From: Stegostoma tigrinum
Taxonomy: Eukaryota
Assembly (NCBI RefSeq): GCF_030684315.1
Contig: NC_081391.1
Span: 14,299,342 to 14,363,341 of the forward strand
Direction of reading: 5' to 3'
Length of the DNA: 64,000 nt
Shown here: positions 1 through 60,889 of the stretch, one piece after another
Position numbering within the stretch: the stretch's first letter is position 1
How the letters are laid out: the number at the start of each line of letters is the position of its first letter
Notes under the pieces: model-generated
The model's database searches: none
What the model was told of the DNA's origin: nothing
What the model saw: the letters and a program-made list of their open reading frames with translations, nothing else
Position numbers and translations under genes: made by a program

Positions 1-119
1 TTTTCAATCGGCTACAAATCTGTGATTCAAAACCGACAGAATTCAGCAAATCTGTGATGAGCGTGTCTTAACACATAACCTCAGATACAAAGGTAAAGGT
101 TCAGAGTCTATTTTATTCT

Positions 120-350
120 CATTTTCAGGGAGATGTACTTCCAGAATTTGTACTTATGCTGGAGGTCAAAGGTCATTCCGCAATTCCATCATCGACCAGT
201 TGTCAATTCTGATCATTTTCTGGATCCAATTCCCATCCTGCACTGATTGGACGTGGCAGCTGATCAACTGATTAACAAGAGTGATTGGCCATCACTGATG
301 ATGTCATTTCCTGCTTCATAAAATGATGGTCTGCATTGGGGTATAAATAA
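120..350 (+). promoter_or_regulatory. Proximal promoter of ferritin copy 1
   Basis: DR1 AGGTCAAAGGTCA 163-175, two inverted CCAAT boxes (GATTGG), TGATGTCA, TTCCTG, TATAAATA 342-349; the same block precedes every copy. Confidence 0.75.
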
Positions 351-436
351 TGTCCTAAGAGAGTGATGTTTTAGGTGTAGTTGGTTTTCTTTCCAAGTTT
401 GTTGTGCTGGGTTAGGAAAGCTGTTTGTGTCACAAG

Positions 437-3400
437 ATGGCCTCCCAGATCAGTCAGAACTATCACCAGGATTGTGAAGCTGCTGTCAACAAGCAGATTA
501 ATGTGGAGCTCACTGCCTCCTATCTCTATCAGTCTTTGGTGAGTGCTGTCCCTGTGGTGTTGAAGTTAAATCTGTTATGGTTAAGTCAACAGTTTTTCTT
601 GTTTGTAACTAACTTGGAACTACTGTAGATAGTGTTTTATATTTCCCTTCTATTTAAACACCAGGAGAAATCTAATGCTATTAGAAAAATGCGGTATGAC
701 ACTGATATACAGTAACTAGGCCCCTGTTGACTTTCAGTGACTGTCTGGTGGGTGAAGTGCTTTGAGAAATACATCTTGTAATTCACTGTCAGGATTGTGA
801 CTGGCAGTAACTGTCACTATCTCTGAAGATTATCATAACTTGACAGTATGTTAGAAAGAGGATAACGGAGTGTGGGGCTGGATGACCACAGCAGGACAAG
901 CAGCATCTCAGGAGCATAAAAGCTGATGTTTTGTGCCTGGACCCTTCATGCTGCTTGGCCTGCTGTGTTCATCCTGCCTGATGCTTTGTTTTCTTGGATT
1001 CTCCAGCTTTTGCTGTTCCCATTATTTGAGTCTTTTAGAAAGAAGCTGGGATAACCATTAGTTCATTAGCCTCCTGTTGTAATGTGTCCTGGTGTATCTG
1101 TTTTGTCTTGTGATGCATGTGAACAAACCAGGGTTATATTTCCTGTTGGAGAAAGGTGTCATAGTGACTGTCCAGAATAACCAAATCTGATTTGCCTCAG
1201 CCTTCAGGGTTGGGCTGTGACTCCCTACCTGTTTAAATAGGTTTCCAGTGAGGCCTGTTGGGCTTTTTGCTCTCCATGAGGTGGGTGTGACCCATTCTCT
1301 CTCAACCTACAGACAATTGATCTGCTGTAGTGTGATATATTGGAGACTCCTGGGTCTGCAGGAATGTGTTGAGCCAGTGAAGCAAGGCTTTTCCCATACC
1401 ACCTCTCCTGGTCTGAAACAAGCCCCCTTTCACCAGCTGGTGGTGTGCCTGTGCCCTTCCAAGGGGGAGAATATGTTTGGAAGGTGAGAGCTGCAGCGGA
1501 CCTAGTAGATAATGGACCCTGAAAGGAGGTGGTGAATGCAGTCCCCATGAAGTGGGTTGCTCTGTCCTGGATGGTGTCTGCTTCTTGCATGTTGTAGCTC
1601 CACTTCTCCAGACACATGGAGAATATTCATCACTCACTGGGCTTGTGCCTGTTGGAAGGAAGTCGTTTCCAATGACATGAGGATCAAGTCCCTGTAAGCC
1701 CACTTTGTGAGATGGGAACAGCTTTTCCTGCTGAACTAGGTGGGTTTTAATCACTGGCCAGTGTGCCTACTCAACAAGAATTGTGCTCATATAAAATCCT
1801 CACTGTTCTTCACATGTCACATCATGTAACAACCCAGTTAAATCACACTGTAATCCACCAAGGCAAATCGTCAAGAGCAACTTCTCACCAGGTTTCTTCC
1901 CTCAGAACAATCCTCATCTGCTTTATGAAGCAGCCTAAAGTGTTCACTGTTATTCCAGCTTGTTGTTCAAGTGTGAATGTCAGATTAGAATGAGTGCAAG
2001 GGGTGGGTCAGGTCTAGAATTTGACCTGTACAAATGGGTCAAATCAGGTTTTCCAGCTTCATGTTAACGAGTGACATGATCTGCAGAACAATAGTTCATC
2101 TCAAGGTCTCTCTGACCTTGCTTCAGTTTGTTTTAAGCAGTGATGTTTGTATGCAAGCTTCTGAATGTGAGTGTGCTACATAAATGGGTGTAGTAGCCTA
2201 TTGCAGTAACAACCGAATGGCTGTCACTGGGCAGGATTTCCTTTGCAGAATCTTGGTTCCACTTTTGCTCTTTCTCCCCCCATAATGCCAACAGCATCTC
2301 TTGCAGAGCTATCATCCAATCCGATTGATCTCCAGGTTGTAGAAGACTCGCTCCCTCCTGGCTATATTATTACAGCAGTGCCTAGTGTCTGTATGTTACT
2401 TTACCCCCAAAGGAGAAATGTAGTGTCGTGCAGCTACCCCACCCTGAGTCCATCCTGCACATCAACTCCTGGCCATTCCTCCAATTCTGTGACATCCATC
2501 AGTGGAAACATGAATTCAGCTTTTCTCAGCATACGCTGTGCCAGACCACCCCCCACCCTGAACAATTTGATAGTGCTTTCAAACCCAAACAGGGTATCTG
2601 CAGGAAGCTGGGTTTGTCTAGATTGACCCAGTTAACAGATCTGCCGGCAAATTGAACCACACTAGGTTCACAGGCCAATTTTGTGTAGCCGCACTTTGAC
2701 AGCTGGCCGAACCTTCAGTTTGCTTTTGAAGGATAAACCAGGTCTGCAGTTCTGAACTATATTCAGGCCCAGTGGTACATTTTAATGGGCTTTAACTTGT
2801 TCCCTCTCCCTTCCAGATGTCCTACTTTGACCGGGATGATGTTGCCCTCCCTCGTTTCTCCCGGTTCTTCAAAGATCAGTCCCAGCAGAAGCGGGAACAT
2901 GCAGAGAAGCTGCTGAAATTCCAGAATCAGCGTGGAGGCAGAGTCCTCCTCCAGGATGTGAAGGTTGGAGTTGGGAAGAGATGGTTGGGTAGGGTGAGGT
3001 TTCAAGTCAATGACCAGCATGTCTCACACTGAAAAGTGAGACATGCTACCATTTTGGCTTCCCAGTTTCTCCTGAAATACCAGAAATCCCACAAACAAGC
3101 CCTTTGGCCCACCATGTCTATGCTGACCCAACAAACACCCAACCACATTAATCCCATCAACCTGCACTTGGACTGCAGCCCACGATGAGCTGGCATTAAG
3201 TAGTTGTCCAGATGTTGCTGGAGTAGATGCCTTCACTCGGGTGTTGCATTTCACAAACCTACTTCTGTGTTTTAGGAGGAGTTGGAGGTGGTGGGTTTCC
3301 TCCGACCTGGAGCCTCACCTGCACCCCCCTCCAGTGTTTATCCTGTCCCTGTGATTGTGGTTCTGGTCACCACACTGGCCAGGTCAAAGATGGAAGACAA

Positions 3401-4847
3401 TGCTGCCTAGTTTCTGACCAGACTTGGGCCACCCAATAGGGACAGGCATCATGTAGGCCAACTTCACCCTCTGGTTGACCTTTGCTGATCCTTGAGAGGC
3501 CAAAGGTCTTGGGCACTTTGGTATCTCTGCTCCTTGCCATTAAAAACCCTGCTGTCCCTTGAATGAATCCAACAGTGATGTTTCTGATCCTGCTGCTCAG
3601 ACAGATATGAAACAAATGGCACAGGTGGGACTTCAACCTGGGCCCTTGTGTACCAGACACAGGGACAGTACCACAGCACCAAGAGCCCTTGGGATTAGGC
3701 TGTGCATGTCCTGATCTAAACTCCAGCAGATGGACACTGGTGTAATCCACACCAGGGTGCAAATTAAATCCTTATCCCCATGATGACATGGTCCTGGACT
3801 TCCTCATTCAGATCAAGGATAAATGGGGCAAGGTGAAAGCAGTTCCCAAGTAACTTTGATCTTCATGTGGACCTCAGGGATGGCACAGTGGCTCAGTGAT
3901 CAGCACTGCTGCCTCAGTGCCAGGGACCCAGGTTTGGTTCTGGCCTTGGGTGAATGATTAGAATTCACATTTCTCCCTGCATGGGTTTCCTCCCACAGTC
4001 CAATGATGTGCTGGTTAGGAGGATAGGTCATGGGAAGTGAGGGGTTGCAGAATTGGGTGGGAGTCTTTTCAGGGGGTATTGATGGTCTGAATGGCCTGCT
4101 CCCATGCTGCAGGGATTCTGTTTCTGAAGATTAACTGTACTTCTTTCTATCCTCAGAAGCCAGAGAGAGATGAGTGGGGTAACAGCCTGCAGGCAATGCA
4201 GGTTGCCCTGGATCTGGAGAAGAATGTGAACCAGAGTTTGCTGGATCTACACCAACTCGCCACAGCCCAGACTGACCCTCATGTAAGCTTCACCTCCTCC
4301 TCATTCTCATCACTGCTGGACCCTCAGGGCAACACTTCATTGGTTGGTCTTTGTGGTTTGGAAATTCACTGCTGAAACAGTTTTTGTCTGGATATGACAT
4401 TGCTATCACTGTATTCACTCCAGGTACAATGTCACAACTGCTCAGCAATGAGTGACATGGGGAATTTGGGTTATAATCTAGTGGGAGTGCTGAAGTGATA
4501 TTGGCCACTGAATTCCCATTCGGGGCCACTCGAGTTGAAATACTAGTGTCCTCACTGGCACAAATTCTCCAGCTATCGGCTGCACTTTGAGGACTGTCTG
4601 GAGTTAGTTATGGCTGAGTCTCTTGCAGTGGGAATTCTGAAATTGTCCTGTGCCATGTTAATGCACAAGTTGTCATGGTCCTCTGTTGCAGCTGTGTGAC
4701 TTCCTGGAGACCCACTATTTGGATGAGGAGGTGGAGATCATCAAGCAACTTGGGGACTACATCACCAACCTGAAGCGCCTGGGAGCCCCTGAGAATGGGA
4801 TGGGAGAGTACCTGTTTGACAGGCTCTCCCTGGAGGACAGCAGTTAG
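437..4847 (+). CDS. Ferritin heavy/middle-subunit-like gene, copy 1 (intact, 176 aa)
   Basis: Exons 437-538, 2817-2963, 4157-4282, 4692-4847 with GT-AG phase-0 introns. Translation [45 protein letters not shown]...[20 protein letters not shown].../KPERDEWGN...[14 protein letters not shown]...[14 protein letters not shown] matches vertebrate ferritin motifs and exon structure. AATAAA at 4975-4980. Confidence 0.96.
861..1026. mobile_element. Penelope-derived fold-back (inverted terminal fragment) repeat in copy 1 intron 1
   Basis: Inverted arms GCTGGATGA..CACAGCAGG..AAGCAGCA / TGCTGCTTGGCCTGCTGTGTTCATCC; same family as 38368-38510 and 44510-44656. Confidence 0.6.
3878..4125 (+). mobile_element. 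HE1-like tRNA-derived SINE ending just before exon 3 of copy 1
   Basis: GGCACAGTGGCTCAGTG A-box-like head, GGTTC B-box-like region, CR1-like tail GAATGGCCTG...GGATTCT; orthologous copies at about 14850-15105, 30848-30921 (remnant) and 40715-40966. Confidence 0.75.
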
Positions 4848-6453: not shown

Positions 6454-8936
6454 CGTAGACCATAAGACATAGGAGTGGAAGTAAGGCCGTACAGCCCATC
6501 AAGACCACTTCCCCATTTAAATCATGGCTGATGGGCATTTCAACTCCACTTCCCTGCACTCTTCCCCCTAGCCCATGATTCCTTATGAGATCAAGAATTT
6601 GTCGATCTCTGCCTTGAACGCATCCAACGTCCCGGCCTCCGCTGCACTCTGTGGCAATGAATTCCACAAGCGAACCACTCTCTGGCTGAAGAAATGTCAT
6701 CTCATTTCGGTTTTAAATTGACCCCCTCTAATTTTAAGGCTGTGCCCACGGGTCGTAGTCTCCCCGCCTCACGGAAACAACTTCCGAGCGACCACTTGTA
6801 AACCATACATTATCTTATAAGTTTCTATTAGATTTCCCCCTCAAACTTCTAAACTCAAATGAGTACAGGATCCTTAGCCGTCCATCATACATTAAACTTA
6901 ATATTCCTAGGGATCATCTGTCTGAATCTCCACTGGACACGCTCCAGGGCTAGTATGTCCTTCCTGAGGTGTGGGGCCCAAAATTGGACACAGTACTCTA
7001 AATGGGGCCTAACTAGAGCTTTATAAAGCCTCAGAAGCCCTTCACTGTTTTTATATTCCAACCCTCGAGAGAAATGACAACATTACATTCACTTTGTTAA
7101 TTACGGACTCTACCTGCAAGTTAACCTTCAGAGAATCCAGCACCAACACTCCCCGATCCCTTTGTACCTCTGCTTTGCGAATTTTCTCACCATTTAGAAA
7201 ATAGTCCATGCCTGTATTCTTTTTATTCTAAAGTGCAAAACCTCACCTTTACTCACATTGAATTTCATCAGCCACTTCCTGGACCGCTCTCAAACTGTCG
7301 AAATCTTTCTGCAGCTTCCCCACCTCCTCAGACTACCTGCTATTCCACCTATCTTCGTATCATCGGCAAACTTCGCCAGAATGCCCCCAGTCCCTTCATC
7401 CAGATCATTAATATACAAGGTGAACAGTTGCGGCCCCAACACTCAACCCTGCGGGACACCACTCGTCACCGGTGGCCGTTCCGAAAAAGAGCCTTTTATC
7501 CCAACTCTCTGCCTTCTGTCAGACAGCCAACCATCAATCCAAGCCAGTAGCTCACCTCGAACACCATGGGCCCTCACCTTGCTCAGCAGCCTCCCGTGAG
7601 GCACTGTATCAAAGGCCTTTTCAAAGTCTACACAGATAACATCTACTGGGTTTCCCTGGTCTAACATACTTGTTACCTCTTCAAAGAATTCTAACAGGTT
7701 TGTCAGGCACGACCTCTCCTTACTAAATCCATGCTGACTTGTCCTAATCTGACCTTGCACTTCCAGGAATTTAGAAATCTCATCGTTGACAATGGATTCT
7801 AGAATTTTACCAACTACCGAGGTTAGGCTAATCGGCCGAAAATTTTCCATCTTTTGCCTTGATCCTTTCTCAAACAAGGGGGTCACAACAGCAATTTTCC
7901 AATCACCTTGGACTTTCCCCTGACTCCAGTGCCTTTTGAAAGATCACGACCAAAGTCTCCACTATTTCCTCAGCCACCTCCCTCAGAACTCTAGGATGTA
8001 GCCCATCGGGGCCAGGAGATTTATCAATTTTTAGACCTTTTAGCTTTTCTAGCACTTTCTCTTTTGTAATGCCTACCATACTCAACTCTGCCCCCTGACT
8101 CTCCCTAATTGTTGGCATACTACTCATGTCTTCCACTGTGAAGACTGACGCAAAGTACTTATTAAGTTCTTCAGCTATTTCCTTATCTCCCATCACTAGC
8201 TTCCAGCATCATTTAGGAGCGGCCCAATGTCTACTTTTGCCTCTCGTTTGTTTCTTATGTATTGAAAGAAGCTTTTACTATCATTTCTAATATTACTAGC
8301 TAGCCTACCTTCATATTTCATCCTCTCCTTCCTTCTTGCTCTCTTTGTTATCCTCCGTCTGTTTTTGGAGCCTTCCCAATCTCCTGATTTCCCAGTGCTC
8401 TTGGCCACTTTATGGGCTGTCTCTTTTTCTTTGATATATTTCCTGACTTCCTTTGTCAGCCATGGCTGTCTAATCCCACCCCGGATAATCTTTCTTTTCT
8501 TTGGGATGAACCTCTGTACTGTGTCCTCAATTATACCCAGAAACTCCTGCCATTGTTGCTCTGCTGTCTTCCCCGCTCGGCTCTGCTTCCAGTCGATTTT
8601 CGTCAATTCCTCTCTCATGCCCCTGTAATTACCTTTATTTAACTGTTACACCATTACATCCGATTTTGCCTTCTCTCTTTCAAACTGCAGACTGAACTCG
8701 ACCATATTATGATCGCTGCCTTCTAAGTGTTCCCTTACTTTAAGGTCTTTTACAAAGTCTGGCTCATCACATAACACTAAGTCCATAATAGACTGCTCCC
8801 ATGTGGGCTCCATCACAAGCTGTTCCAAAAAGCCATCCTGCAGACACTCCATGAAGACCCTTTCTTTGGGTCCACTGGCAACATTATTCACCCAGTCCAC
8901 CTGCATATTGAAGTCCCCCTGATCACCGTGACGTTG
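6454..8936 (-). mobile_element. CR1/HER1-type LINE, 5'-truncated, frameshifted ORF2
   Basis: ORF pieces with FRPISLTSVVGK, QHGF, SCLTNLLEFFEEV, GVPQG and endonuclease SDH motifs; CATAAGAC-type tail at the left end; absent at the paralogous site near 17280. Confidence 0.93.
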
Positions 8937-8949
8937 CCTGTTGTCCAGG

Positions 8950-9250: not shown

Positions 9251-9284
9251 AATGTACCAAACAAAGGAATATGCTGATGCATTC

Positions 9285-11092: not shown

Positions 11093-14000
11093 ATGGCCTC
11101 CCAGATCAGTCAAAACTATCACCAGGATTGTGAAGCTGCTGTCAACAAGCAGATTAATGTGGAGCTCACTGCCTCCTATCTCTATCAGTCTTTGGTGAGT
11201 GTTGTGTTTGTGAGGTTAAAATTCAATCTATTGTTCTGAAGTAAGCTATTTCCCTTGTAGATTGTGTTTCATATCTCTTACCTATTGAACACATCAGGAG
11301 AAATGTGATGTTATCATATCAGTGGGCTATGATCCTGATGTACAGTAATGGTGGACCCTGTAGGTCTTCAATGATCTCTGGAGGGTGAAGTGTTTTTTTG
11401 ACTTAATTCAAAATTCCCTGATAAAACTATGCCTGGCAGTAATTGTCACTCCCTCACTAAGATTATCAAAAAGTTATCTAATTTCTGAAGGAACTGGAAT
11501 AACATTGGCTAGTTACTGGCTTCTGTTTTTAACTTCTTGCTTTCTGTTTATTTAGTGATGCATGTCATTGAACAACATGCTGACTTAGTATAGTAGTAAG
11601 GCATTGTGGTAGCTCTTTCCAATTAACCAAATCTGATCTGACACAGCCTTCAGGGTTTGGGTGTGACTATTAGCAGCTCAAATAGGCCTTGTTGGGGGGC
11701 CTACTGGGCTTTGTGATCATTATTGAGATTGGTGTGGCCCTTCCCATAACACTTGACACGAAGTTGATCTGCTGTGGTGTGTGAAGTGAGATGCTGGTGC
11801 TTCTGGAATGTGCTGAGGGTATTGCCCCAGTGACAGTGATGAAATGGATTGTTCCCAGACCAACTATCCTGGTCCTGAAACACACTGGCCCCTTAGACCA
11901 GGTGGCAGAGTGCCTGTGCCTGTCTAAGGGGTAGAATGTGTTTGGAAGTTGTGTTGAAGTAACCTTGGTGAGTGCTGCAGGGGACCTGGTAGATAATGGA
12001 CCCTGAAAGGAGGTGGTGAATGCAGTCCCCCTGAAGTGGGCTGCTCTGTCCTGGATGGTGTCTGCTTCTTGCATGTTGTAGCTCCCCTTCTACAGACACA
12101 GGGGGAATATTCATCTCTCTCTGGGCTTGTGCCTATGGGAAGGAAGTTGCCCTGATGTAAGGATGGAGTCAGTATAACCTCCATTTGGGAGGTGGGAACA
12201 GCTTTTACTGGTGAACCCGTTGGGGTTTAATCACTGGCCAGTGTCCCAGCACAACAGGGCATTATGTACCAATCAATAAGTCCCCACTATTCTGTCTTCT
12301 GCAACTTTGAGCTACCCAATTAAACCATACTTTTTTGCCTCACTTTGTATTTGAGGGTTGAAGTAGCTTTTCCCACCAGGTTTCCAGCAGTGTGTTTACT
12401 GGTGACATTATCCATAGAACAAGAGTTGATCTAGAGATCAATTGTCTGTCTCCAACATTTCACTTTTCTTCAGTTAGTTCTGACAATTTGTTTTATCGGT
12501 GTGATTCTTATTTGCAAGCTTCTGGATGTGAGTGCACTCAATAAACAGGTGTGTAATAGTCTTCTGCGGCCACAATCCAAAGGCTGTAACTGGGCACGCT
12601 TTCCTCACCAGAATCTTGGTGCCACTTTCTCCTCCATGCTGCAGACAGCATGTCCGTAGCGCTAAAATATATGGTACATCTAATGCCATTAGTCTTGTGG
12701 TTGCACAACTTGCTTCCTCCTGATTGTCCTGTTCGAGTAGTGCTCAACATCTCTAAGAGATACCAAGGTCGGGAGATGTTTGAGCGCAGCAGGCCAAACA
12801 GGAAATCTGACACTATGGGCTAACATTTGTTTGCCACCTTCTCCCCAAAGGAGAAATGCAGTGCCTTGCAGCTGCCCCACCCTGAGTCCATTCTGCATAT
12901 CAGCTCCTGGCACTCGGTTAAAATGTTAGTCCATCCCTAGTTTCATTCAATCCTGATGAGTGTTCAACAAAGGAAACATGAATTCAAGTTTACTCTCTTA
13001 ATGCTGTGCCAGACCCCCTGAGCATTGTACTGTGTATCTTAAACCAAAACACATGGTATGCACATCCTCCCTGGAGGAAGCTGGGTTTGTTCAGATTGAT
13101 CCAGTTCAAGGATCGTCTGGCTAATTGGACAACACTAGGTTCATGACCAGTCATGTACCAGAACATAACAGCTCGTGGCATTCTGGATCAAACTGACAAT
13201 TCTAAACCTTCTATCAATTTCTGAGATCTACAACTGGCTCCAGTGGAGCATTTAATGGGATTTGACATGTTCTCTCTTCCAGATGTCCTATTTTGACCAG
13301 GATGATGTTGCCCTCCCCCATTTCTCCCAGTTCTTCAAAGATCAGTCCCAGGAGAAGCGGGAACATGCAGAAAAGCTGCTGAAATTCCAGAATCGGCGTG
13401 GAGGCCGAGTCCTCCTCCAGGATGTCAAGGTTGGGGTTTGGTTTGGGTGAGGGTGGGTGGTGACAGGTGAAAAATGTCAGCTCTCATGGTGAGGTTGCAA
13501 GTCAGTGACGAGGACTTCACATCCTGATGGGAAGTGACAAATATGTTCTTCTGTTTGGGTTCCCTGTGTCCTGACTCTCTGAATTCAACAAATCACAGAA
13601 ACAAGCCCTTTGCCCAACATGTCTATGCTGACCCACCAAATGACATTTTGCTGCACTTGGTCTACAGGCTACTCTGCCCTGGCATGAAGTACTTGGCTAG
13701 ATGTTGCTGGAGTGGCTGTCTCATCCATATTTCTACCATCCTCTGGTCGGGTTTGGGGCAGGGGTGAGGGAGGACACTTCCTCAAACCTGTGCCCTCTGG
13801 TCTTGGTGCCTGCCATGGCAAAGACCTCTGTCCTTCCATCTTCCAACTGCCTCAGCCTCTCAACCTCCAAGGAAAATCCCAGCTTCTGGAACCTGTCTTC
13901 AATGGATTTTCAGTCTTGAGGCAACATCCAGTATTCTTTACCTGCAGCCCTTCCAGTGCCATCCTGTCCCTCGGATTTGGGGTTCTGGTCACCACCCTGC

Positions 14001-44656: not shown

Positions 44657-44700
44657 CAGTAAAGACCTCTGCTATCTCCAACTCCACGCACACAAGTACC

Positions 44701-48496: not shown

Positions 48497-48782
48497 GAGA
48501 TCAAAGTGCAAAGCTGGATAAACACAGCAGGCCAAGCAGCATCTTGGGAGCTCCTGAAATACTGCTTGGCCTGCTGTGTTCATCCAGCTTTGCACTTTGA
48601 CCTTGGATTCTCCAGCATCTGCAGTTCCCACAATCTGTGATCACAAGGATGTGATGGTGTTGTGACCAGGACCACTGTTTTTATATGAGGTGGTGGGTTC
48701 AGAAAAAGGGCCTAGGCCTGAAATGTCAGCATTGTTGCTCAGCTTGCTGTGTTCATCCAGCTCTAAACCTTTATTATCTCAT
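48497..48782. mobile_element. Penelope-derived fold-back fragments in copy 6 intron 2
   Basis: Inverted arms TCAAAGTGCAAAGCTGGAT...GCAGGCCAAGCAG / CTGCTTGGCCTGCTG...CTTTGCACTTTGA plus a second fragment at about 48700-48782. Confidence 0.6.
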
Positions 48783-48814
48783 TCCAAGCTGAATATTTGT
48801 CTACTACCATCCTC

Positions 48815-50660
48815 TGTCATCTATTGGACAGCCAAGTCTATATCCAGACAGCCAAACTACCCTGCCTCACTACTTTGAGTCTACCATGTGGAACCTTATC
48901 AAATGCCTTACTAAAGTCGACAGCCACAGATTGACCTACATCAATGAATTTTTGTCACCTTGAATTCTTTAAGGCTTGGGGCATGACCTGCTTCTCCCAA
49001 AGCCATGCTGATTATTTCTAATAGTTTTTCCAAATAATTATAAATACTACTACCTCTCAGATTCCTCTCCAGTAACATGCCCACCTCAGAAGCAAGACAG
49101 ACTGATCTATAATTCCAAGGATTATCCCTTTCCCTTTCTTGAACAAGAGAATGACATTTGCCAGCCTCTGATCATCTGGCACTAGTCCAGTGGACAGTAA
49201 GGACACAAAGATCCTTGCCAAAGGTGCAGCAATCCCTCCTTGCTGCTTGTAGTATCCTTGGGTATATCCCATCTGGCTCAGGGGACTTGACTGTCCCCAT
49301 GTTTTTAATCCCTTGCATATCCTTTTCCTAACACCAACCTGTTTTGAGCACCTCAGCCTGTTTCATGCTGTCCTCAAACTACTCAGTTCCCCTCTGTTGA
49401 AAAATGAAACAAGGTCATTAAAGACCTCTGCTATCTCCTTCAACTCCATGCACCCAAGCACCCTCTCCTACCCCCAATTGGCCCTAAAGCCACTCTGCCC
49501 ATCCTCCTCTTCCTCACAAGCTTAGAATGCCTTGGTTTTCCTTAGTTCTACCCATAAGGCTTTTTCATATCTTCTCGCTCAAGTCCATTCTTCAGTCCTT
49601 TTCTGGCTACCTTCTAGAGCTGTCTGATCCTTGCTTCTTCCTGACTGGATGGTCCACATGTCTTGTTATCCAAGGTTCCTTCACCTTGCCATCCCTTCCT
49701 TGCTCCAGGTGGGACAAACCTGTCCAGCACCATAGCAACTGCTCCCTAAACAATTCCACATTTTTTTTGTCATGCATTTCCCTGAAGATCTGTTCCTAAT
49801 TCATACTTGTCAGGTCTTGCCTAATAGCATTCTAATTCCCCCCCCCACCCCCCACTATAAATGTTTTCCCGAACCATCTGCTCCTATCCCTCTGATTTAA
49901 AGTCAGGGAGTTGTGATCACTAGCACTGAAATGATCTCCCACAGATCTGACACCTGACCTGGCTTGTTGCCCCATCTTGTTGGTCTAACTACATAGTCAG
50001 AAATCCTTCTTGGACACCTGACAAACTGCTCCAGCCAAAATATTTGCACTAAGGAGGTTCCATTGACTTCAGAATTTGAAGTCACCCATGATGGCAACAC
50101 TATTATTTCTTCACCTTTCCAAACTCTACCTCCCAATCTGTTCCTCAGTGCCTCTTGCTGTTGGGGTTGGTCTATAGACTTTGCCCAATAAAGTGTTTCT
50201 GACTTCCACCCACACTGTCTCAGTAGACAAACCCTCCCTAGCTGTAGAAATGGGAGTTGCTGTAATACCGTCCCTGCATTAATAATGCTACTCCCCACCT
50301 CTTTTACCTCCCCCTAGTTCTTATTAACATCTAAACATCAAACAACCATTCCTGCCATATTATCCAAGTCTCTGTAACTCTGCATGCTGTATCTACCCAT
50401 AGTACCTGTTCCCCATCCTCTGATCTATAGCTCTGGATCCCATTTCTCCTTCCAAAAGTTACACCCTTGAAGAGCTCAAACATCCTGCCCAGGATGTTCA
50501 GGCCCATCCCTCTACAGGTCCCACCTTCCCCAGAAGGAATCCCAATGATCCACACCTGAGAGCCTCCCTTTGACACCAGCTCTGTAGTCACATGTCCAGC
50601 TGCACTTGCTCTCTATTCCAAGCCTCACTACTCCATGGCACCAGGAGTAATCCTAAGGTA
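48815..50660 (-). mobile_element. Old degraded CR1-type LINE in copy 6 intron 2
   Basis: Minus-strand remnants FSKAFDKVP and IAAPLARIFVSLLSTGLVPDD..LANVILLFKKG; many indels. Confidence 0.7.
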
Positions 50661-53600
50661 ACTGCTGATCACAATCTCTACTCTGGATGTACAGAGAAAG
50701 CAGAGGGTTGACTATTAAACAAGGGTGTTGTAAATAATGCAAAACAGTGAAGTTGTTTGCTCTGAAGCTTACCTGTCCTTCACTCATCCCTCTCTGGCTT
50801 CTGAGGATGGAGAGGGGTAACAGCCTGCAGGTTGCCCTGGATCTGGAGAAGAATGTGAACCAGAGTTTGCTGGATCTACACCAACTTGCCACAGCCCAGA
50901 CTGACCCTCATGTAAGCTTCATCACCTCATTGTGATCACTTGGTGTTAATCAGGTGAAGTGGGTTGAACATGCCCATGTGGTAAATGAAGGGTGGGGGTG
51001 TTGGAGCAAGGGGTGTTATCCCAGTGACTTGGTCAGTTAAAGGATTCAAAGTAATCTGTAAAGCTGCACTGAGCACACTAGTCTTTTCCCCAGTAACAGT
51101 CACTAAAGTAGGAAAAAATTTGCCAGCAACATTGCTGCAGATTCTGAACCAGTGAGCATTGAAGTAGAGTTCTTTTAACTGACATGTGATTTATCTCAAG
51201 ATACATTGTCATGAAATCAGGGGAAAATCCCCACCACAAATTGTGGTTCCTCTTGCAATGTTTGACACTTGCCTTCCTTCCAGCTGTGCAACTTCCTGGA
51301 GACTCACTATTTGGATGAGGTGGAGATCGTCAAGCAACTTGGGGACTACATCACCAACCTGAAGCACCTGGGAGCCCCTGAGAATGGGATGGGAGAGTAC
51401 CTGTTTGACAGGCTCTCCCTGGAGGACAGCAGTTAGTGTGCCCTGGAGTACTGTCTGCTTGGTCTGAATGCATTCCCCACTTCACCCTGGGAAACCTGTC
51501 TGCTTCCAGGGAGAAGGGACTTTTGTAGCAAAGAATGTAATGGCTGTACCAGCTGAATGGGAATGAATAAAATGTATTGAGCTTGCTTATTGCCCATCAT
51601 TTGACTACTGATCTAATTTGGTAGATAATTCCTGGCTTGCAGCATTGTTCAGCCAATCAAAATGCAGATCAAGTCACATCAAACCAAAACACTTCACTAG
51701 ATCTTCCTGTGAGACCCCCCTCTTATTGGAAAGGGATAATTAGATGATGCTCCTCTATAGTGAACAAGGAAATTCAAATTATTCACAAGTGGAATGTGAG
51801 GTCAGGGTTTGCAGTCCAGGAGAAAAGTCTTTCTTTGTACAAGCTAGTCCAGTTTGGGACACTGTGTGGTTACTATTGCAGTTAGAAGGGATTGTCTTCC
51901 ATTGTGCAAGGAAGATTCCCCTACTTTTTATACAAGGAAAGACAAGATATCCAGGTTAATAACCCTCCCGGCACTGATTGCATGTTTGCTTCCAGCTTTC
52001 CCTTCAAACAGTTACCCCTCAGCCTCAATGAAAAAAGCTCTTTCATGTTATTCATAAATCACAATGTGAAGACAAATTACATGATCTAGCCATGGGATCA
52101 ATTCATCTCACCCAAAGTGCAAGGGAAGAGAGAGAGATCAATCAGGCTGTGATTTTTTTTTTTCTACCCAGGAGGTGGAACCATCTAGTCTGGGGATGAT
52201 GCAATCTCCATGGGGCTTTAACATGACCTGCAGAGTCTATTCTAAACACCGCTGCTCCCTCTTCCACTCTGCACCAGACCTAAGACTCCAGGGAGCTGGT
52301 TGGGGCTCAGACCAGCACAAGGCCCTAAGATTGTCAATCTTTCCCTTAGTTATAAACCCTCAGCAATTGGGCAGTTTCACCAGTTTCTTCCTCAGTTTCA
52401 GTTCCACACTGCTGCTTGGTACCATACCCATCCCAATCCCAGTTCAGCAAGGGATTAATCAAATTAATGAAACACCCTTGTGGGGAAGCTTTGATTGGCA
52501 ATAGTGTCAAAGTTGCTCATTTTGTTTCCCTCTCCTGGGACTCCTGACTCCCATCACCACGTCTGCACTTACTGCAATGATCTTCAAGCCTCCCAGCCTA
52601 AGGCTGGAAAAATACAGTCTGAACGTTCACAGCAGTCGGTTCAAGACGTTCTCCTGAACTGTATTGGATTATATTGCAGTGTCTCAGTGATTTATAATGC
52701 AGTGTCTGTCTCAGTGCCATCTACAGCAGGCTAACAGTGACTGGGATTAGCACAGCAATGCTGCCATTTCATTGGCTCATGCTGCTCCCTTGGTTCCTCT
52801 GAGCTTCCCACACAGTGAGGGTTACTCCTGATGCAGGTTGATTTCACCCAGTGATGTTGAACAAAGTGATATTCTGTTCAACTTGGGAACAGTGTGACTG
52901 AGGGAGGAAATCTAGAGTTGTAGATGGTCCTGGATCCTGTACAGCTCCTTCCCATTTCCTTCCTCCCCATCGGAGACAACATCCTGAGGATTGTTTCAGT
53001 GAATTTTATAGGAAGTGCACCTGACAGTTTTTGTGAAGGGGGGGTTCGTTAAGGCACTGAATGTACTTGTTCCATCACAGACGTCCTTTTTACTTTAAAC
53101 TATCCCAACTTGTGGCTTATAGAATCCCTGCAGGTCAGGAACAGGCCATTTGATTCATTTAGTCTGCATAGAGTCTCTGAACCCCATGCTGCTCAGACCC
53201 ACTCCATCCATGTTTCCCATGGCCAACGCACCAAGCTTGCATATCCCTGACACTATCTGCAACTTAGCATTGTCAACTCACCTAACTTGCAAACTGGACT
53301 GTGGGAGAAAACTGGAGCACAAGGAGAATGTACAAACTCCACACAGACAGTACCCGAAGTCTGTAATGGAACACAGGCCCCTGTCGCTGGGAGGTAACCG
53401 TGCGAACCACTGAGCTACCATCACACCCTAATGTACCAAACAAAGGAATATGCTGATGCATTCTATGAGAGTCATTGAGTCATACAGCCTGAAAACAGAC
53501 CCTTCAGCCCAACCTGTCCATGCCAACCACGTTTCCATAACTGAATGAGTCCCACTTGCCCACGTTTGTCCCATATCCCTTGAAACCATTCCTATAAATG

Positions 53601-55236: not shown

Positions 55237-55331
55237 GTCTCAATGATGTTATGTTTTTTTGTCTAGTTGATGCTGGTTCTAAGTTTGTCACTTTTGTTGT
55301 CAGTAAAGTAAAACAAACTCCTCATCACAAA

Positions 55332-58300
55332 ATGGCCTCCCAGATCAGTCAGAATTATCACCAGGATTGTGAAGCTGCTGTCAACAAGCAGATTAATGTG
55401 GAGCTCACTGCCTCCTATCTCTATCAGTCTTTGGTGAGTGTGGCTTCTAAAGGGTTTAAAATTTAATCTATTATTTTGAAGTGAATGGTTTCCCTTGTTT
55501 TGCGTTAACTTGACACCCTTGTAGGTTGACTTTTAGTTGTCCATAACTAACTCAATTCAGGATGAATGTGACTGCTATCAAAGCTGATGATAGCTAGTGA
55601 TAAATGGAGAATGAAGTGTTCTTTACTGTTAGTTTACAGGTAACTTAAATAGTTGTGCCTGTCATTCCCTCTCTAGGATTGTCAAAACTGGATATTTGTT
55701 AGGCCCCCTTTTGGGGTGGTGTGGTGTCTGTGGTTAATGCTACCTCCCAGTTCTAAGGGCCTGTTTGATCTGAAATTTGGGCAAATCTACAAATTGTAGA
55801 AAGATCTTTGTCTCTCCTCCCACAATCCAAAGATGTGCAGAGTGGGTAGGTTGGACAATTCAGCATGTCTACGGTGTCCAAGACTGTGCAGCTCAAGTGG
55901 GTGGACCATGTGACATGCATATGACTGACAAGGTTGGGTGTGGATTTGACTAGGATGCTGTTTCTGGGGTTGGTGTGGTCTTGATGGGCTGAATGGCCTA
56001 CTTCAACACAGGTGTTCTAGGGTTCTGATTTTCCCTTTTTAGAAACACTATTGGATTAACTATATTGATGGAATAGAAGTGCCTGTTGGCTAGTCACTCT
56101 CTCTTGGCTGTTGTACATTAACTTGACTCTTAGTTTGAGGTGATCCTAGATAAACATGATGCTAACTTGGATCTACAAAGATTGCCAGTCAGATTTTCTT
56201 TTGCTTGTCTGACCTAAATAATTTAAGGCCAGGCTGTGACAGTGGGCCACAATTGTGGTCTAGATAACTTATTTCCTGCACGTACTATTTGAGATGGGTG
56301 TCTGTAGTGAGGTGATTATTTCAGGCTCATCCCTGCACCAGGAGGAAGAGTTGATGATCAACGGTGTGTTGGTGCTGCTGGATTGTCCTGAGATATATGA
56401 CCCAATAACAGTGAAGTACTAGAGATTCTGTTCCTATGCTGGCCAAACTTGAAACCGGCCTCTTTCTCCAGTTGGTGCTGTACCTGTGACTGCCTAAGTG
56501 GTAGGATTTCTGGGTGTGAAAAGTTTGTATGATCCTTCCTCAGTGAGGAAAACATTGTCTTGCAATAGCTCATGGTTGCTTTATCCTCAGGATTGAGGGA
56601 CTGAATGGCCTAATCCTGTTTTGTATTGATTAGTTTTGTTTCCCAATTCTACATTCAGAAAAATGAACCAGTGACCCGAATTCCTTCTGGTTAACTTTGA
56701 ATTGAGTGAGGTAGGTTGTACTTACTCCAGTTCTTTCCAACTGAGCTTTCACTTTGTCAAAAGCTCCAACTTAATGTTCAGCATGGAACCAATTTAAACC
56801 TACACCTGCATGACTGACTGAACAACGAGCTTCTTGCCCATTTTAATATACCAGAGGTTTCACACCTTTATTGAATAGTCAGTTTGATCTGGATTGCTAA
56901 AGTTTTCTAATTCAAATGAGAACTGAGGCCACAGATATAATGGGATGTAAATTGTTCTCTCTTCCAGATAATCTACTTTGACTGGGACGATGTTGCCCTT
57001 CCCCATTTCTCCCGGTTCTTCAAAGATCAGTCCCAGGAGAAGCGGGAACATGCAGAGAAGCTGCTGAAATTCCAGAATCAGCGTGGAGGCCGAGTCCTCC
57101 TCCAGGATGTGAAGGTTGGTGTTGGGTGGATATGGCTTCTTGTCGTCAGTGACAGGATTTTCACATTCTCAAGAAATTTTTTTTAAAAAGCTCTTTTCTT
57201 GGCTTCCCTGTTTGTTCTCCGAGTCAGGCAGCATAGAAACAAACCCTTTGGCCCACCATAACTATGCTGCCCAAAAACCCCCAAACTGCACGAATCCCAT
57301 TTACTCCACTCTGTCTGTACCGTACTTGTCCAGATGCTGTTCAATGTTGGAGTAGCTGCCTCATCATTCCCCCCACCCCCTCAGGTGGTACATTCAAATT
57401 TCTAGCAACCTCCTTTTGGGAGTGTGGTGGGGGAGGGGGAAGAGAGGTGTTGGGAAGAACTCCCCCCAGTCCCCTCTAACCTGCTGACTCCTCAAACCTG
57501 TGCGCCCTCATCTTGGTGTCTGCTGCGGGGAAGACATTCTCCCCATCTACTGTCTGGACTCCCCAATCTTCTATACTTCTAACTTTGTCAGTCCCTTCTC
57601 CAAGGAAAATTTCTGCCTATCCAACCCCTCAATGGACTTTCCACCTCTAGCAATGTTCTGGTGACCCTCGCTGCCCTCCCACCCCCTGTAGGTGCCATCC
57701 TGTCCTACTGATTGTGGTCCTAGTCATAACACTCTTCCATCTGTGATCCGGCCAGAGTTTTGTGGGAGTGGGGTGGGGTGTGGCTGCCCTTGTGATGTGG
57801 TTTATGTTCATGTTAACTAATTATTGCATCCTAAAGGCAGGTGTAACAAGTGAAGTACTTCTTTGAACTTCACCTATTATCTGTCTCCATGATGTGCAAG
57901 CACTATACTGTATCGGTTCTGAGTTAATCTCCACTGTGTTCCTGTGTTAGTGGTTTCAGTGAGATCAAGTGTACACTCAGGATCTAGGATCTAGGTTCAA
58001 GGTCTGGTGACAACGTGACTGGACTCAGTTTTTAAAGCAATTCTGTTTGTACCAAGTACAATCGGACAAGATCCAAGTGTGTGCTCCTTCTCTAACTTCA
58101 TTAGACATAACAGCAATGATTGTAGAGGGAAAGCATAAACAGTCAAGGGTCAACTGTTGAACAAGGGTTCTGCATGTAATGGGAAACAGTGAGGTTTGTC
58201 CTGAAGCTTACCTGTCCTTCTCTCCATCCCCAGAAGCCAGAGAGGGATGAGTGGGGTAACAGCCTGCAGGCAATGCAGGTTGCCCTGGATCTGGAGAAGA

Positions 58301-58962
58301 ATGTGAACCAGAGTTTGTTGGATCTACACCAACTCGCCACAGCCCAGACTGACCCTCATGTAAGCTTCACCACCTCATTGTAATCACTTAGACAGTGTTA
58401 ATTGGGTGAAGTGGACTGAATATGCCCATGTAGGCTGAAGGCCCAGCTCCTTGTAATACCCAGAACAAGGGATGTTATCCCAATGTCCTGGCCAGTTGTT
58501 AAAGGATTTAAAAAGTTGTCTATAGAACTGCTGTGCGCACAGGGCTTCTTCCAGTATTAGTTACTAGAATAAGGAAAAATCTAGCCAGTGATGCTTCAGC
58601 AGATTCCAAATGCCAATCTTTGCTCTTTAGCACCCTTTCTCTCATGCACTGAATATTCCAAGCTGATTGTTCCCAATGAGCTTTGAAGTTCAGTTTTAAT
58701 TAGTTGGTAGAATGACCAGCTGAAAGTGATACTCACTGTGAAATCAGTGGAAGTGTCCTGCCACATGCTAACTCTTGCAATATTTTACTGCCTGCCTCCC
58801 TTCCAGCTGTGTGACTTCCTGGAGACTCACTATTTGGATGAGGAGGTGGAGATCATCAAGCAACTTGGGGACTACATCACCAACCTGAAGCGCCTGGGAG
58901 CTCCTGAGAATGGGATGGGAGAGTACCTGTTTGACAGGCTCTCCCTGGAGGACAGCAGTTAG
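55332..58962 (+). CDS. Ferritin heavy/middle-subunit-like gene, copy 7 (intact, terminal copy)
   Basis: Exons 55332-55433, 56968-57114 (starts IIYFDWDD), 58234-58359, 58807-58962; open frame; distinct 3'UTR with AATAAA at 59055 and 59085. Confidence 0.93.
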
Positions 58963-60889
58963 CGTGGCCTGGAGTATATTGTTTTCTGTCAACTTTCTCC
59001 AGGTAGAGTTGGAAGCAAGTAGTCAATGTCACACTTTTTTTTGTCAGAACTTGTAATAAAGAATCACTTGCTCTACCTCATTGAAATAAAATCTTTGATC
59101 TACCTGTCCACTGGTCATAACACTGACATCACAGTTTAATCTGCCAGCTATTGGAGTCCACCTTTCTCCTTGAGGCATATGGATGTTAAGTCAACACTTG
59201 TCTACCTCCCGTCTTCCTTTGTGAGAAGAACATAAACTGTTGTGGTTTGTGGTAGTAGCTCAATAGGTGTTGGGTCCTGTTTTGGAGAAATGAACTGAAT
59301 AAGCATTCCTACTATATTTGCAACATTGGCTTAAAATTAAACCGCTGCAAATCTCTTGTTGTCCCTAACTAGACTTTCAAATGACCAATTCTAGACACTG
59401 ATTATGCTACGTAAGGAATTAAACAGATATCTTTCTTTATTTAGGGGAAGAAAACATAGTCCCTTTTTTAAATAAGTCTTTTCAGGTCCTTGTCTGTATT
59501 TTGGGTGACTATCAAGTTAAAGGCTACATAAGAATAACAAAACTGGCCACCTTTTTAAGGGTTTTCTCAATACATTGTTTGAGTGACCCAACACAGATGT
59601 GGACTCCTTTTTTGGTTCAATACAGACAACTACAATGTGGTCATACTCAGGTCGTAATATTTCTAACTTGGCTTTCTACTGTCCAAAGGGTGTGGAGGAT
59701 TAAGCTTAGAGCTTTGCAAGCTCCCTGCCCTGTTGGCAGCAGCCCAGCTCCCTTTGCTTTGAAAGCGTGTTCCAAAAACAACCCCAAATCTGAGTGTACA
59801 GCTATGCTTTCTGTTTGATTCCCTGGCCTCTGTTACCATTCAACATCTGCTTCAATTATAGGGTCTTTGTGACTTGCTAGAACAATCTTATTTTCAGGTA
59901 CTGACCCCACTTAATAACTTTAATTTGTGCATTTTTTTAAATGCAATGCTTTTCTTGGTGTCACTAGATCTGTAGGAAATGCTTTGGTTTAGAACTTGGC
60001 CTTCATTTAAACCCTAGGCTCTTCAAACAAAGCCTGTTGGCTTTTTTCAAAAATACATTTAAACAGTGTCAAACAAAGATTGGCAGAGAAATGCAAAATC
60101 AGCAAGAGTTCTGCTGAGCATCCACAGTGCCTTAGGTCGGGGGTTGGTGTTTGGAGCTGACCTTTCTCACCCACGTCCCTAATTTGTATTGCCTACTGTG
60201 CTAGCCCAGTTCTGGTGACATTCATTCTATCATATGGCTGAAGTTCCAGAGTCACCAAGACTAGGCAAGGGACTGGAGATACCTTTCTCTGAAGGACGTT
60301 GGTAAAGTAGGTGGAATTTTGATGACATGTCAGCAGTTGCATGCTTAAAGTGAGAAAACGTTGGTTTTAACACCACACCATAACATGGAGCTATTGGAAT
60401 TCACTGCCTCTCCCTTCCCATTACTAGAAGATGAAACAGAAACTATCTCACAGTGCCTGTCCCTGTTTCCCTTCAGCCTGAAGAGACCTATGTTTGGAAT
60501 AATTCACAACCAGAATCTGTTCTCCTATGGTCTTGTGACAGTAGTTTATATTTTTTAAAAAATCAACTCCACACTGCCATGAGATATTTCTGCCTGACCT
60601 TGGAACGTATACTCTGTCACATGTCACCATATATGGCTGTCTTTTCATGTGCTTCAGCTCCTCACTGATCAGTAGGAATGTTTCCAAAAGGAGCGGTTTG
60701 ATTAATGTTAGGTTAGCGCCATCCTTTGGGGACAGGGTGAAATGTTGAGGCTAATGTGCTTCTAAGATAAACTGTGATGTAACCATGATCTGATAACTTG
60801 CTGGGAGATCAGAGCCTGAACTTGCGGCTCTATGGCCTTAGCACTGTGTAAGAAATGTTGCTTAAAAGTAACCTAGAAATTAGTCCTGA

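What the first reader, a model, noticed from the sequence alone, without database searches (positions are those of the whole stretch)
1..59100. Seven-copy tandem ferritin array in a cartilaginous-fish-like genome
Seen: seven intron-containing ferritin units in tandem, four intact and three disabled in different ways. Known: extra vertebrate ferritin copies are often processed retrocopies; tandem families such as mammalian Fthl17 have specialised roles. Inference: a lineage-specific amplified ferritin subfamily under birth-and-death evolution. Its shared loss of ferroxidase ligands and of the IRE (separate findings) hints at a job other than ordinary iron-regulated storage.
Basis: partly seen in the sequence, partly recalled or inferred. 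Interest (0 to 1): 0.8.

Follow-up and report, generated by a model that had tools for sequence, protein, structure and literature searches.

The report
Shark tandem ferritins lacking ferroxidase site
This is part of a known large cluster of iron-storage (ferritin) genes in sharks, but these copies carry the change that switches off iron oxidation in our own ferritin light chain, and they appear to keep their coding sequences alike by copying from one another.

Summary
In detail: seven four-exon ferritin genes in tandem, four intact (176 aa) and three broken. They are not assembly duplicates: intron flanks differ by 10-36%. The window matches zebra shark (Stegostoma tigrinum) RefSeq models. 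Seven is a window artefact: 12 further exon-2 variants of the same type occur in models from that contig. Tandem ferritin expansion in sharks is already published (PMC13214024; bioRxiv 2024.09.09.611499, which reports ovary-specific expression). Two points were not in the papers I searched. (1) These copies form a shark-wide clade (100/99) with Lys at ferroxidase position 62 in 23 of 24 records from 8 species, plus Gln141Glu in carpet sharks. Both are tetrapod L-chain marks. A larger sister clade on the same contig keeps the site. Best trees imply convergence; L orthology is not rejected (AU p 0.10-0.46). (2) Exons and 3'UTRs are homogenised by DNA-level gene conversion while introns diverge, so birth-and-death is only half the story. 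No IRE. Best guess: an L-like, IRE-free, high-dosage partner subunit, probably ovarian. Activity, assembly and expression are untested.

The parts
30..436 (+). C1 promoter and 5'UTR: conserved upstream block with two inverted CCAAT (ATTGG) motifs, TATAAATA at 342-349, no IRE. The same block lies before all seven ATGs.
   Evidence: (9-18% differences between copies, 5.7% for C2-C5), 34 alignment; motif names from recall
437..4847 (+). Copy C1, intact K-type ferritin (exons 437-538, 2817-2963, 4157-4282, 4692-4847); K59, E138, private E58Q; poly(A) signal 4975-4980
6461..8930 (-). Degenerate LINE (RVT_1; CR1-like by recall) private to the C1-C2 spacer
11093..15848 (+). Copy C2, intact (exons 11093-11194, 13283-13429, 15137-15262, 15693-15848)
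17874..18332 (.). CT-rich tandem repeat (7- and 28-bp periods) expanded only in the C2-C3 spacer
19674..23985 (+). Copy C3, intact (exons 19674-19775, 22074-22220, 23268-23393, 23830-23985). Introns 1-2 resemble C6/C7, 3' part converted to C2 type.
23235..24152 (+). Two-ended conversion tract shared with C2 15106-16015 (91.6%), covering exon 3, all of intron 3, exon 4 and the 3'UTR
27648..31615 (+). Copy C4, pseudogene: +1 insertion in codons 2-3, first stop at codon 13 (exons 27648-27750, 30036-30182, 30951-31076, 31460-31615)
35588..41649 (+). Copy C5, pseudogene and chimera: C2-like to about 39326, C1-like 39335 to about 40800 (second exon 2 at 39492-39638), C4-like from about 40883; TGA at codon 127 (41497-41499)
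44701..45106 (+). Orphan duplicate of the 3' part of exon 1 (44701-44759) plus the intron-1 start; 96% identical to C6 46309-46713
46266..51436 (+). Copy C6, pseudogene: 11-nt deletion in exon 2 (47811-47946), lost exon-3 acceptor, 9- and 3-nt deletions. Its exon 4 plus 3'UTR (51278-51601) is still 92-93% identical to C1-C5.
55332..58962 (+). Copy C7, intact (exons 55332-55433, 56968-57114, 58234-58359, 58807-58962). Exon 2 and upstream frame match Stegostoma RefSeq model P0010.
58963..59100 (+). C7 3'UTR, 35-37% different from the other six (AATAAA at 59055 and 59085); internal control for an unconverted UTR
61856..64000 (-). Young LINE (509-aa open RVT_1 frame, C-terminal zinc finger in a second frame; RTE-like by recall), runs off the window end

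Best explanation
The window is a 7-gene slice of the zebra shark's tandem ferritin cluster, and these genes belong to a distinct, old shark subfamily ('K-type'). SHOWN: ferritin four-helix fold; Lys at ferroxidase position 62, with Glu107 kept; Glu at 141; intact 3-fold channel residues; no IRE; TATA-type promoter; purifying selection on exons 1, 3 and 4; exons and 3'UTRs homogenised by two-ended DNA tracts while introns diverge; chimeras from unequal crossover; a ferroxidase-intact sister subfamily ('A-type') on the same contig. INFERRED: Lys62 fills the di-iron site and pairs with Glu107 as in L chains, so the subunit cannot oxidise Fe(II) but stabilises the cage. It co-assembles with A-type or H subunits into mixed 24-mers, playing the L-chain part of ordinary iron storage. 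With no IRE, output is set by gene dosage and transcription rather than by cytosolic iron, which suits bulk iron loading of oocytes or yolk. The L-like state arose by convergence inside the shark cluster.
For: Ungapped alignment to frog M ferritin places K59, E138 and I141 on E58, Q137 and D140. Model pLDDT 88.9, TM 0.94 to frog M ferritin (model of database protein P0008, 169-172 of 176 residues identical to the intact copies). K59 in 8 of 8 window exon 2s and 14 of 14 in Stegostoma K-type models, in 23 of 24 K-clade records from 8 species and 17 of 17 tetrapod L rows, against Glu in 70 of 76 A-clade records. Review passages: E62K is 'sufficient to abolish' ferroxidase activity (PMC7760355); the K62-E107 salt bridge is an L hallmark (PMC11396501; PMC2603009). 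K clade support 100/99. K+A sister at 88/86 to 93/76 in 3 of 4 final trees (unresolved). K and A models share contig length in 8 of 8 species with both (read). Intact copies vs consensus: 2 N / 12 S changes in exons 1, 3, 4, omega about 0.04. Conversion: 4-fold sites differ 2-15% vs 10-36% in 60-nt intron flanks, Fisher p<0.05 in 19 of 21 pairs; 3'UTR 1.5-7% among C1-C6, pseudogenes included, vs 35-37% to C7; two-ended C2/C3 tract includes a whole intron. Ovary-specific expression of the largest Greenland shark cluster (bioRxiv 2024.09.09.611499 passage).
Against: No expression, activity or assembly data for these genes. The ovary result is from another species and does not separate K from A copies; PMC13214024 reports some copies expressed in fin and blood. 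Five of seven ligands remain (four in C1). The cavity-facing acidic patch of L chains is only partly present (E53 is D/H, E56 is Q; E57 and E60 kept), and this part of exon 2 is the least constrained (15 N / 8 S, omega about 0.5). One K-clade record has Glu59 (P0019) and one A-clade record has Lys59 (P0064). K+A support is never starred, and K+L is not rejected (p-AU 0.457, 0.101, 0.173). No K-type among fetched hits of 7 chondrichthyan genera (Rhincodon, Scyliorhinus, Heterodontus, Pristiophorus, Pristis, Hemitrygon, Callorhinchus), so it may be dispensable, although only the top 120 cluster representatives per search were seen. No CPE-like motif seen by eye in the 3'UTR. The 21 pairwise tests are not independent.
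Confidence: 0.5

Rival explanations
1. The K-type is the true shark orthologue of the tetrapod L chain: Lys62 arose once before sharks and bony vertebrates split, and sharks amplified the gene. Function as in the best explanation, history different.
For: AU tests do not reject K+L. K and L share majority states at 8 positions (34, 49, 57, 59, 116, 134, 138, 169) against 3 for K and A. Tetrapod L and M models share contig length in 8 of 11 species where both were listed (misses: Emydura, Pleurodeles, Caretta; read by eye), mirroring K and A linkage in sharks.
Against: All 4 final ML trees keep L apart, at 100/99-100. Removing 7 trait columns widens the gap under LG+G4 (delta lnL 3.0 to 12.3). 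E138 and R169 are absent from the 5 non-carpet-shark K rows, so those two at least are parallel. PMC13214024 assigns a different shark gene, on the FTH1a chromosome, to FTL (its tree figure not seen, its sequence not obtained).
Confidence: 0.2
2. FTHL17-like germline or regulatory protein: a ferroxidase-dead ferritin with a job unrelated to mineral storage (nuclear, structural or signalling), with exon 2 diversifying.
For: Same E62K change, multi-copy arrangement and germ-cell expression as FTHL17 (PMC7760355 passage). No IRE. Exon 2 has more amino-acid change than the other exons (Fisher p=0.0055), and variable sites 50, 54, 57, 58, 60, 65 fall on the published nucleation list.
Against: 3-fold channel residues H115, D128 and E131 are intact in all four functional copies and exons 1, 3, 4 are almost invariant, unlike a low-stability FTHL17. 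Exon-2 omega is below 1, and 4 of its 15 changes are flagged CpG transitions. The gene has introns and lies outside the H clade.
Confidence: 0.15
3. Passive by-product: a recombination-prone cluster keeps generating copies, conversion from a few functional genes keeps exons looking intact, and most copies, perhaps all four intact ones here, contribute little.
For: 3 of 7 copies broken; chimeras and an orphan exon; many Stegostoma models are fused or truncated; pseudogenes are homogenised too; no K-type among hits from 7 genera.
Against: Some K-type source must be under selection: the clade is kept in 8 species with 77-93% protein identity to C1. Synonymous changes exceed non-synonymous 12 to 2 in exons 1, 3, 4 of intact copies. 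Promoter and splice signals are intact in 4 of 4.
Confidence: 0.12
4. Assembly or haplotype artefact.
For: Coding exons are 91-100% identical to C1 in the non-C6 copies.
Against: Introns unalignable or 2-23% divergent; private LINEs; no gaps; comparable clusters in independent shark assemblies.
Confidence: 0.02

Closest known systems
Shark ferritin tandem clusters ('FTH1b', Yang et al. 2026 PMC13214024; 'FTL/FTH1' clusters, Sahm et al. bioRxiv 10.1101/2024.09.09.611499)
   Same: Tandem, multi-exon ferritin copies, tens to over a hundred, with truncated members; sharks generally high; S. tigrinum among the species analysed; stated to be at least 250 My old; largest Greenland shark cluster ovary-specific.
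   Different: Neither main text contains 'ferroxidase' or gene conversion, and the PNAS text lacks 'IRE'. The PNAS tree used one FTH1b representative per species and treats the copies as H-like. Here the cluster splits into site-intact A-type and site-blocked K-type. That this window is the orthologous cluster is inferred, not shown by flanking genes.
Tetrapod ferritin L chain (FTL)
   Same: Lys62 with Glu107 kept, Glu141, Arg-Leu at 172-173, Leu ending exon 1; linked to site-intact paralogues.
   Different: Keeps E27 and H65, which most L rows lose (E24 in 3 of 17, H62 in 3 of 17); partial nucleation patch; no IRE; multi-copy; separate clade in all 4 final trees; 64-66% identity to reptile L vs 66-69% to most amphibian M hits.
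Amphibian and fish M (H') ferritin
   Same: Best PDB matches by sequence and fold (about 70% identity, TM 0.94); same 176-aa length; RefSeq often names these 'middle subunit-like'.
   Different: M keeps E58, Q137 and D140; here K, E and I. Not in the M clade.
Mammalian FTHL17 / Fthl17
   Same: E62K with most other ligands kept; six-gene family in mouse; germ-cell expression.
   Different: FTHL17 is H-like and, by recall, an intronless retrogene. These genes have 3 introns and sit outside the H clade. No FTHL17 sequence was in my trees.
Hadal snailfish fthl27 array (PMC10746142)
   Same: Tandem ferritin amplification in a fish, 14 copies, read as a dosage adaptation.
   Different: Species-specific and tied to ROS protection; ligand state not given in the passages read.

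Membership tests
Eukaryotic ferritin (PF00210) | Ferritin domain, four-helix bundle plus short E helix | tested here: met
   Pfam hits on 4 of 4 exons (1 of 4 above the gathering score alone); P0008 E=6.7e-36; model with 5 helices, TM 0.94
Eukaryotic ferritin (PF00210) | 24-mer cage assembly | not testable with these tools
   Only a monomer was modelled; 3-fold channel residues are conserved
H/M-type (ferroxidase-active) subunit | E27, Y34, E61, E62, H65, E107, Q141 all present | tested here: not met
   E62 is K in 8 of 8 exon 2s; Q141 is E in 4 of 4 intact copies; ligand list from PMC2603009
H/M-type (ferroxidase-active) subunit | Groups with the H or M clade | tested here: not met
   Own clade 100/99, outside H (98/96) and tetrapod M (99/88)
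Tetrapod L chain | Lys62 with Glu107 available for the salt bridge | tested here: met
Tetrapod L chain | Glu141 and Leu-lined 4-fold channel | tested here: met
   E138, L166, L170; L170 also occurs in 14 of 21 A-type rows, so it is weakly diagnostic
Tetrapod L chain | Cavity nucleation carboxylates (E53, E56, E57, E60) | tested here: inconclusive
   E57 (3 of 4 intact copies) and E60 kept, E53 is D/H, E56 is Q; L rows themselves vary at position 54
Tetrapod L chain | Orthology (one clade with FTL) | tested here: inconclusive
   Apart in 4 of 4 final trees; AU p 0.457, 0.101, 0.173; no flanking genes in the window
Tetrapod L chain | 5'UTR iron-responsive element | tested here: not met
   transcription starts inferred from TATA boxes, so an unseen upstream non-coding exon cannot be excluded
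Tetrapod L chain | No ferroxidase activity; heteropolymer with H | not testable with these tools
   Needs biochemistry
FTHL17 | E62K | tested here: met
FTHL17 | Derived from mammalian FTH1, intronless (recalled) | tested here: not met
   Three GT-AG introns; outside the H clade
FTHL17 | Germ-cell expression, partly nuclear | not testable with these tools
   No expression data
Shark tandem ferritin cluster | Tandem multi-exon copies in a shark, sharing a contig with many other ferritins | tested here: met
   16 of 17 fetched Stegostoma ferritin records list the 26,869,179-bp contig; P0010 matches C7
Shark tandem ferritin cluster | Microsynteny with the Greenland shark cluster | not testable with these tools
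   No non-ferritin host gene found in the window; no eukaryote genome collection available
Processed retrocopies | No introns, poly(A) remnant | tested here: not met
   All seven units have introns

The most novel reading that the evidence does not exclude
Sharks invented a ferritin light chain of their own. Before squalomorph and galeomorph sharks split, a duplicate in the ferritin cluster took the same Glu62Lys step as tetrapod L and mammalian FTHL17, and carpet sharks later added Gln141Glu and Arg172, retracing L-chain evolution. Freed from the IRE, amplified and kept uniform by gene conversion, K-type and A-type arrays set the catalytic-to-structural subunit ratio of oocyte or yolk ferritin by gene copy number. 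The published shark 'heavy-chain' expansions tied to ferroptosis and longevity would then partly count catalytically dead genes.
Probability: 0.3. Interest if true: 0.68.

Novelty: new variant of a known kind. Interest (0 to 1): 0.47.

Why it matters
The array itself is expected in a shark. The added value is threefold. First, recent genome papers count these clusters as ferritin heavy-chain expansions and link them to ferroptosis and longevity; if a sizeable share of copies cannot oxidise iron, copy number has to be re-read by subtype. Second, the K clade gives an apparent stepwise series (E62K alone in four non-carpet-shark species, plus Q141E and R172 in carpet sharks, E27 and H65 still present) for testing how an L chain evolves from an active subunit, and whether L arose once or more than once in vertebrates. 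Third, exon-limited gene conversion means coding-sequence trees and Ks dates understate the age of these duplicates, and short RNA-seq reads will mis-map; 5'UTRs and exon 2 are the usable copy tags.

Tried and rejected
Assembly duplication: rejected. Retrocopy origin: rejected, introns present. RNA-templated conversion, suggested by identity dropping at splice sites and near the poly(A) site: disfavoured because the C2/C3 tract contains all of intron 3, C1-C5 share about 100 nt of intron 3, and no intron loss was seen. Selection on a 3'UTR structure as the cause of UTR identity: the 2 converted-type UTRs folded gave z = +0.29 and +0.48, and intact C7 has a UTR 35-37% different. Rfam miRNA and lncRNA hits (4 of 4 below gathering score): the two best are imperfect inverted repeats, treated as chance or repeat-derived. 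tRNA scan: 0 genes. Single-sequence structure prediction failed (pLDDT 42) and was repeated with a 73-row alignment. FCH and PAD_porph domain labels on fused model P0006 overlap ferritin repeats and give no synteny clue. Cluster membership lists could not be obtained, so per-species copy numbers stay unknown; the 45 members of the P0008 cluster may include other species or annotation versions. No complex prediction was run, because a ferritin pair would pass by likeness to solved cages. Literature searches: (ferritin, shark, gene duplication, ferroxidase) 0 papers; one off-topic paper each; nothing describing a shark E62K subfamily in the listings; one search gave the snailfish paper. The library lacks most subscription papers, and bioRxiv supplements were closed, so the Sahm supplement could hold subtype or expression detail I did not see. 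Rows left out of trees: unnamed records, records with implausible source labels (P0123, P0145, P0194), fused or partial models and redundant rows; 82 of 252 database proteins were used and 34 of 252. No human, teleost M or frog 'lower' subunit was in the trees.

Full report
Observation. Taking the four exons of the first copy by coordinates and searching the window found seven complete four-exon units on the + strand, plus one extra exon 2 and one exon-1 fragment. C1, C2, C3 and C7 have GT-AG introns and give 176-aa proteins. C4 has a one-base insertion in codons 2-3. C5 has TGA at codon 127 and two exon 2s. C6 has an 11-nt deletion in exon 2, no acceptor at exon 3 and two further deletions. 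The exons match Pfam Ferritin. The window has no N runs and its best long internal match is 96% over 989 bp; LINE insertions are private to single units. The copies are therefore paralogues, not assembly duplicates. No IRE was found by Rfam, by loop pattern in the 5'UTRs or by folding the four intact-copy 5'UTRs. Every copy has a TATA-like box about 90-110 nt before the ATG, within a conserved upstream block. Transcription starts are inferred from these boxes.

Source and extent. Exon 4 is 100% identical to Stegostoma tigrinum RefSeq ferritins on a 26,869,179-bp contig. One model, P0010, contains C7's upstream frame and its diagnostic exon 2 at 100%, then continues into exons of a copy that is not in the window. 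Ten Stegostoma models of this type hold 14 exon-2 peptides, 13 distinct, of which 1 matches a window copy. At least 12 more such exons therefore lie outside the window, some surely in pseudogenes. Exact counts could not be had because cluster listing was unavailable.

What is already known. PMC13214024 (section 6 read whole, passages, supplement search; figures not seen) reports that sharks generally carry many 'FTH1b' copies, 59 in two tandem clusters in the Greenland shark, with S. tigrinum among the species compared, and some copies expressed in fin and blood. bioRxiv 10.1101/2024.09.09.611499 (passages only; supplements closed) reports ferritin clusters shared by Greenland and white sharks, at least 250 My old, the largest expressed specifically in ovary. 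A 14-copy fthl27 array is known in hadal snailfish (PMC10746142, passages). A tandem ferritin array in a shark is thus expected. Neither shark main text contains 'ferroxidase' or gene conversion, and searches listed no paper on a shark ferroxidase-deficient subfamily. The library is incomplete.

The protein. An ungapped alignment of P0008 (172 of 176 identical to C1) with frog M ferritin puts Lys59, Glu138 and Ile141 on frog E58, Q137 and D140. In H numbering, E27, Y34, E61, H65 and E107 are kept, E62 is Lys and Q141 is Glu; C1 also has E61Q. Lys59 is in 8 of 8 window exon 2s. Review passages state that E62K suffices to abolish ferroxidase activity and is found in FTHL17 (PMC7760355), and that the K62-E107 salt bridge replaces the iron site in L chains (PMC11396501; PMC2603009). 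All 17 tetrapod L rows have this Lys and 15 of 17 have Glu138. The L nucleation patch is only partly matched. The model is an ordinary ferritin subunit (pLDDT 88.9; TM 0.94 to frog M); side-chain distances were not measured.

The subfamily. Of 116 named chondrichthyan records fetched, 27 are K-type, from 8 species: Stegostoma, two Chiloscyllium, Hemiscyllium, Cetorhinus, Carcharodon, Mustelus and Heptranchias. Lys59 is present in 23 of the 24 that cover the site; P0019 has Glu. Glu138 is in 21 of 21 carpet-shark records and 0 of 6 others. The 83 A-type records have Glu59 in 70 of 76 and Gln138 in 81 of 83. No K-type appeared among the hits from seven other genera; only top-120 lists of 90% cluster representatives were seen. 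K and A models share contig length in all 8 species (read by eye). In an 86-row tree the K-type is a clade at 100/99, tetrapod L a clade at 100/100, and K is sister to A at 93/76. With seven trait columns removed K+A scores 88/86 and 91/82; one tree left it unresolved. Forcing K with L is never rejected (p-AU 0.457, 0.101, 0.173). The best tree needs two changes for Lys59. I favour convergence at roughly 3 to 1, with orthology open. The presence of Heptranchias dates the clade to before the squalomorph-galeomorph split (taxonomic placement recalled; 250 My figure).

How the array evolves. Four-fold degenerate sites differ by 2-15% between copies, while the 60 intron bases beside the splice sites differ by 10-36% (random 46%). 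The flanks are significantly more divergent in 19 of 21 pairs, which are not independent. Whole introns of C1/C3, C1/C7 and C2/C7 mostly do not align. The 3'UTR differs by 1.5-7% among C1-C6, pseudogenes included, but by 35-37% from C7, although C3 and C6 are closest to C7 in introns 1-2. C2 and C3 share a two-ended 0.9-kb tract from just before exon 3, through intron 3, to about 165 nt past the stop, so the exchange is DNA-level. C5 is C2-like, then C1-like, then C4-like, which explains its second exon 2 as an unequal crossover. The window's proteins group with the other Stegostoma row apart from the bamboo-shark rows, with weak support (96/55). The units are thus old and their exons are repeatedly homogenised: concerted evolution on top of birth and death. 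Against consensus, the four intact copies show 2 non-synonymous and 12 synonymous changes in exons 1, 3 and 4, but 15 and 8 in exon 2 (Fisher p=0.0055). Many variable sites are on helix B positions listed as cavity nucleation residues. This fits relaxed constraint plus CpG decay; positive selection is not shown.

Mechanism. Shown: fold, the Lys62/Glu141 state, loss of the IRE, selection on most of the protein, conversion, and a site-intact sister array nearby. Inferred: the subunit is ferroxidase-null and stabilised by a K62-E107 bridge, joins A-type or H subunits in mixed cages as L chains do, and is supplied by gene dosage independent of iron-regulated translation, most plausibly in oocytes given the ovary report. 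I put this at 0.5. Rivals: true L orthologue (0.2, same function), FTHL17-like non-storage role (0.15), mostly passive copies (0.12), artefact (0.02). It works like an L chain by sequence. It is not filed as FTL, because orthology is unresolved and the IRE is absent, nor as H, M or FTHL17.

Verdict. Real, and a member of a published shark expansion, with an apparently undescribed L-like subfamily and clear gene conversion. New variant of a known kind; interest 0.47.

Noticed in passing
database records P0136, P0139, P0158, P0171, P0180: A third shark ferritin clade (100/99), site-intact, few members per cluster, sharing contig length with the big clusters where a contig is listed; P0136 alone has ENA support. 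It may be the ordinary somatic member of the locus.
   Followed up: partly
database clusters P0037, P0040, P0056, P0091: A-type clusters hold 127, 180, 138 and 69 member sequences, larger than K-type clusters (76, 45, 43, 19); whether A-type genes have an IRE is unknown.
   Followed up: no
window exon 2 copies and P0008: All four combinations of F/V at residue 48 and D/H at residue 54 occur (C1, C3, C4, P0008), a four-gamete pattern six codons apart suggesting conversion breakpoints inside exon 2.
   Followed up: partly
window 491-493 and equivalents (residue 19): K-type and A-type both have Lys where H, M and L rows have Arg. By recall this is the FTH1 Arg23 needed for NCOA4 binding, which would bear on the ferritinophagy reading in PMC13214024.
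   Followed up: no
window about 378-383 and equivalents: An invariant TAGTTG lies about 35 nt after the TATA box in 7 of 7 copies while its surroundings vary, and CANNTG boxes lie upstream. By recall TAGTTG is a NOBOX site and E-boxes bind FIGLA in oocyte genes; short motifs, untested.
   Followed up: no
window 61856-64000 (-): Young, CpG-rich LINE with a 509-aa open reverse-transcriptase frame (RVT_1 E=6.5e-34) and a C-terminal zinc finger in a second frame.
   Followed up: partly
window 6461-8930, 21477-21716, 44268-44416, 48802-49022: Fragments of an older LINE family, the longest in the C1-C2 spacer and others in C3 intron 1, the C5-C6 spacer and C6 intron 2.
   Followed up: partly
window 38398-38512, 26588-26820, 20296-20456: Self-complementary stretches of 115-234 bp, with related pieces elsewhere in the window; probably paired short repeats or MITE-like elements. 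Two gave sub-threshold miRNA hits.
   Followed up: no
window 17874-18332: A 28-bp CT-rich unit expanded about 14 times in one spacer only; a single copy lies near 9550 in the C1-C2 spacer.
   Followed up: no
database records P0123, P0145, P0194: Vertebrate-type ferritins labelled giant panda (reptile-L-like), Aeromonas veronii and a nematode; likely contamination or mislabelling, left out.
   Followed up: no
database records P0009, P0010, P0026, P0041: Stegostoma RefSeq models fuse exons of neighbouring copies (exon 3 spliced to the next copy's exon 2), so automated copy counts for this cluster are unreliable.
   Followed up: partly
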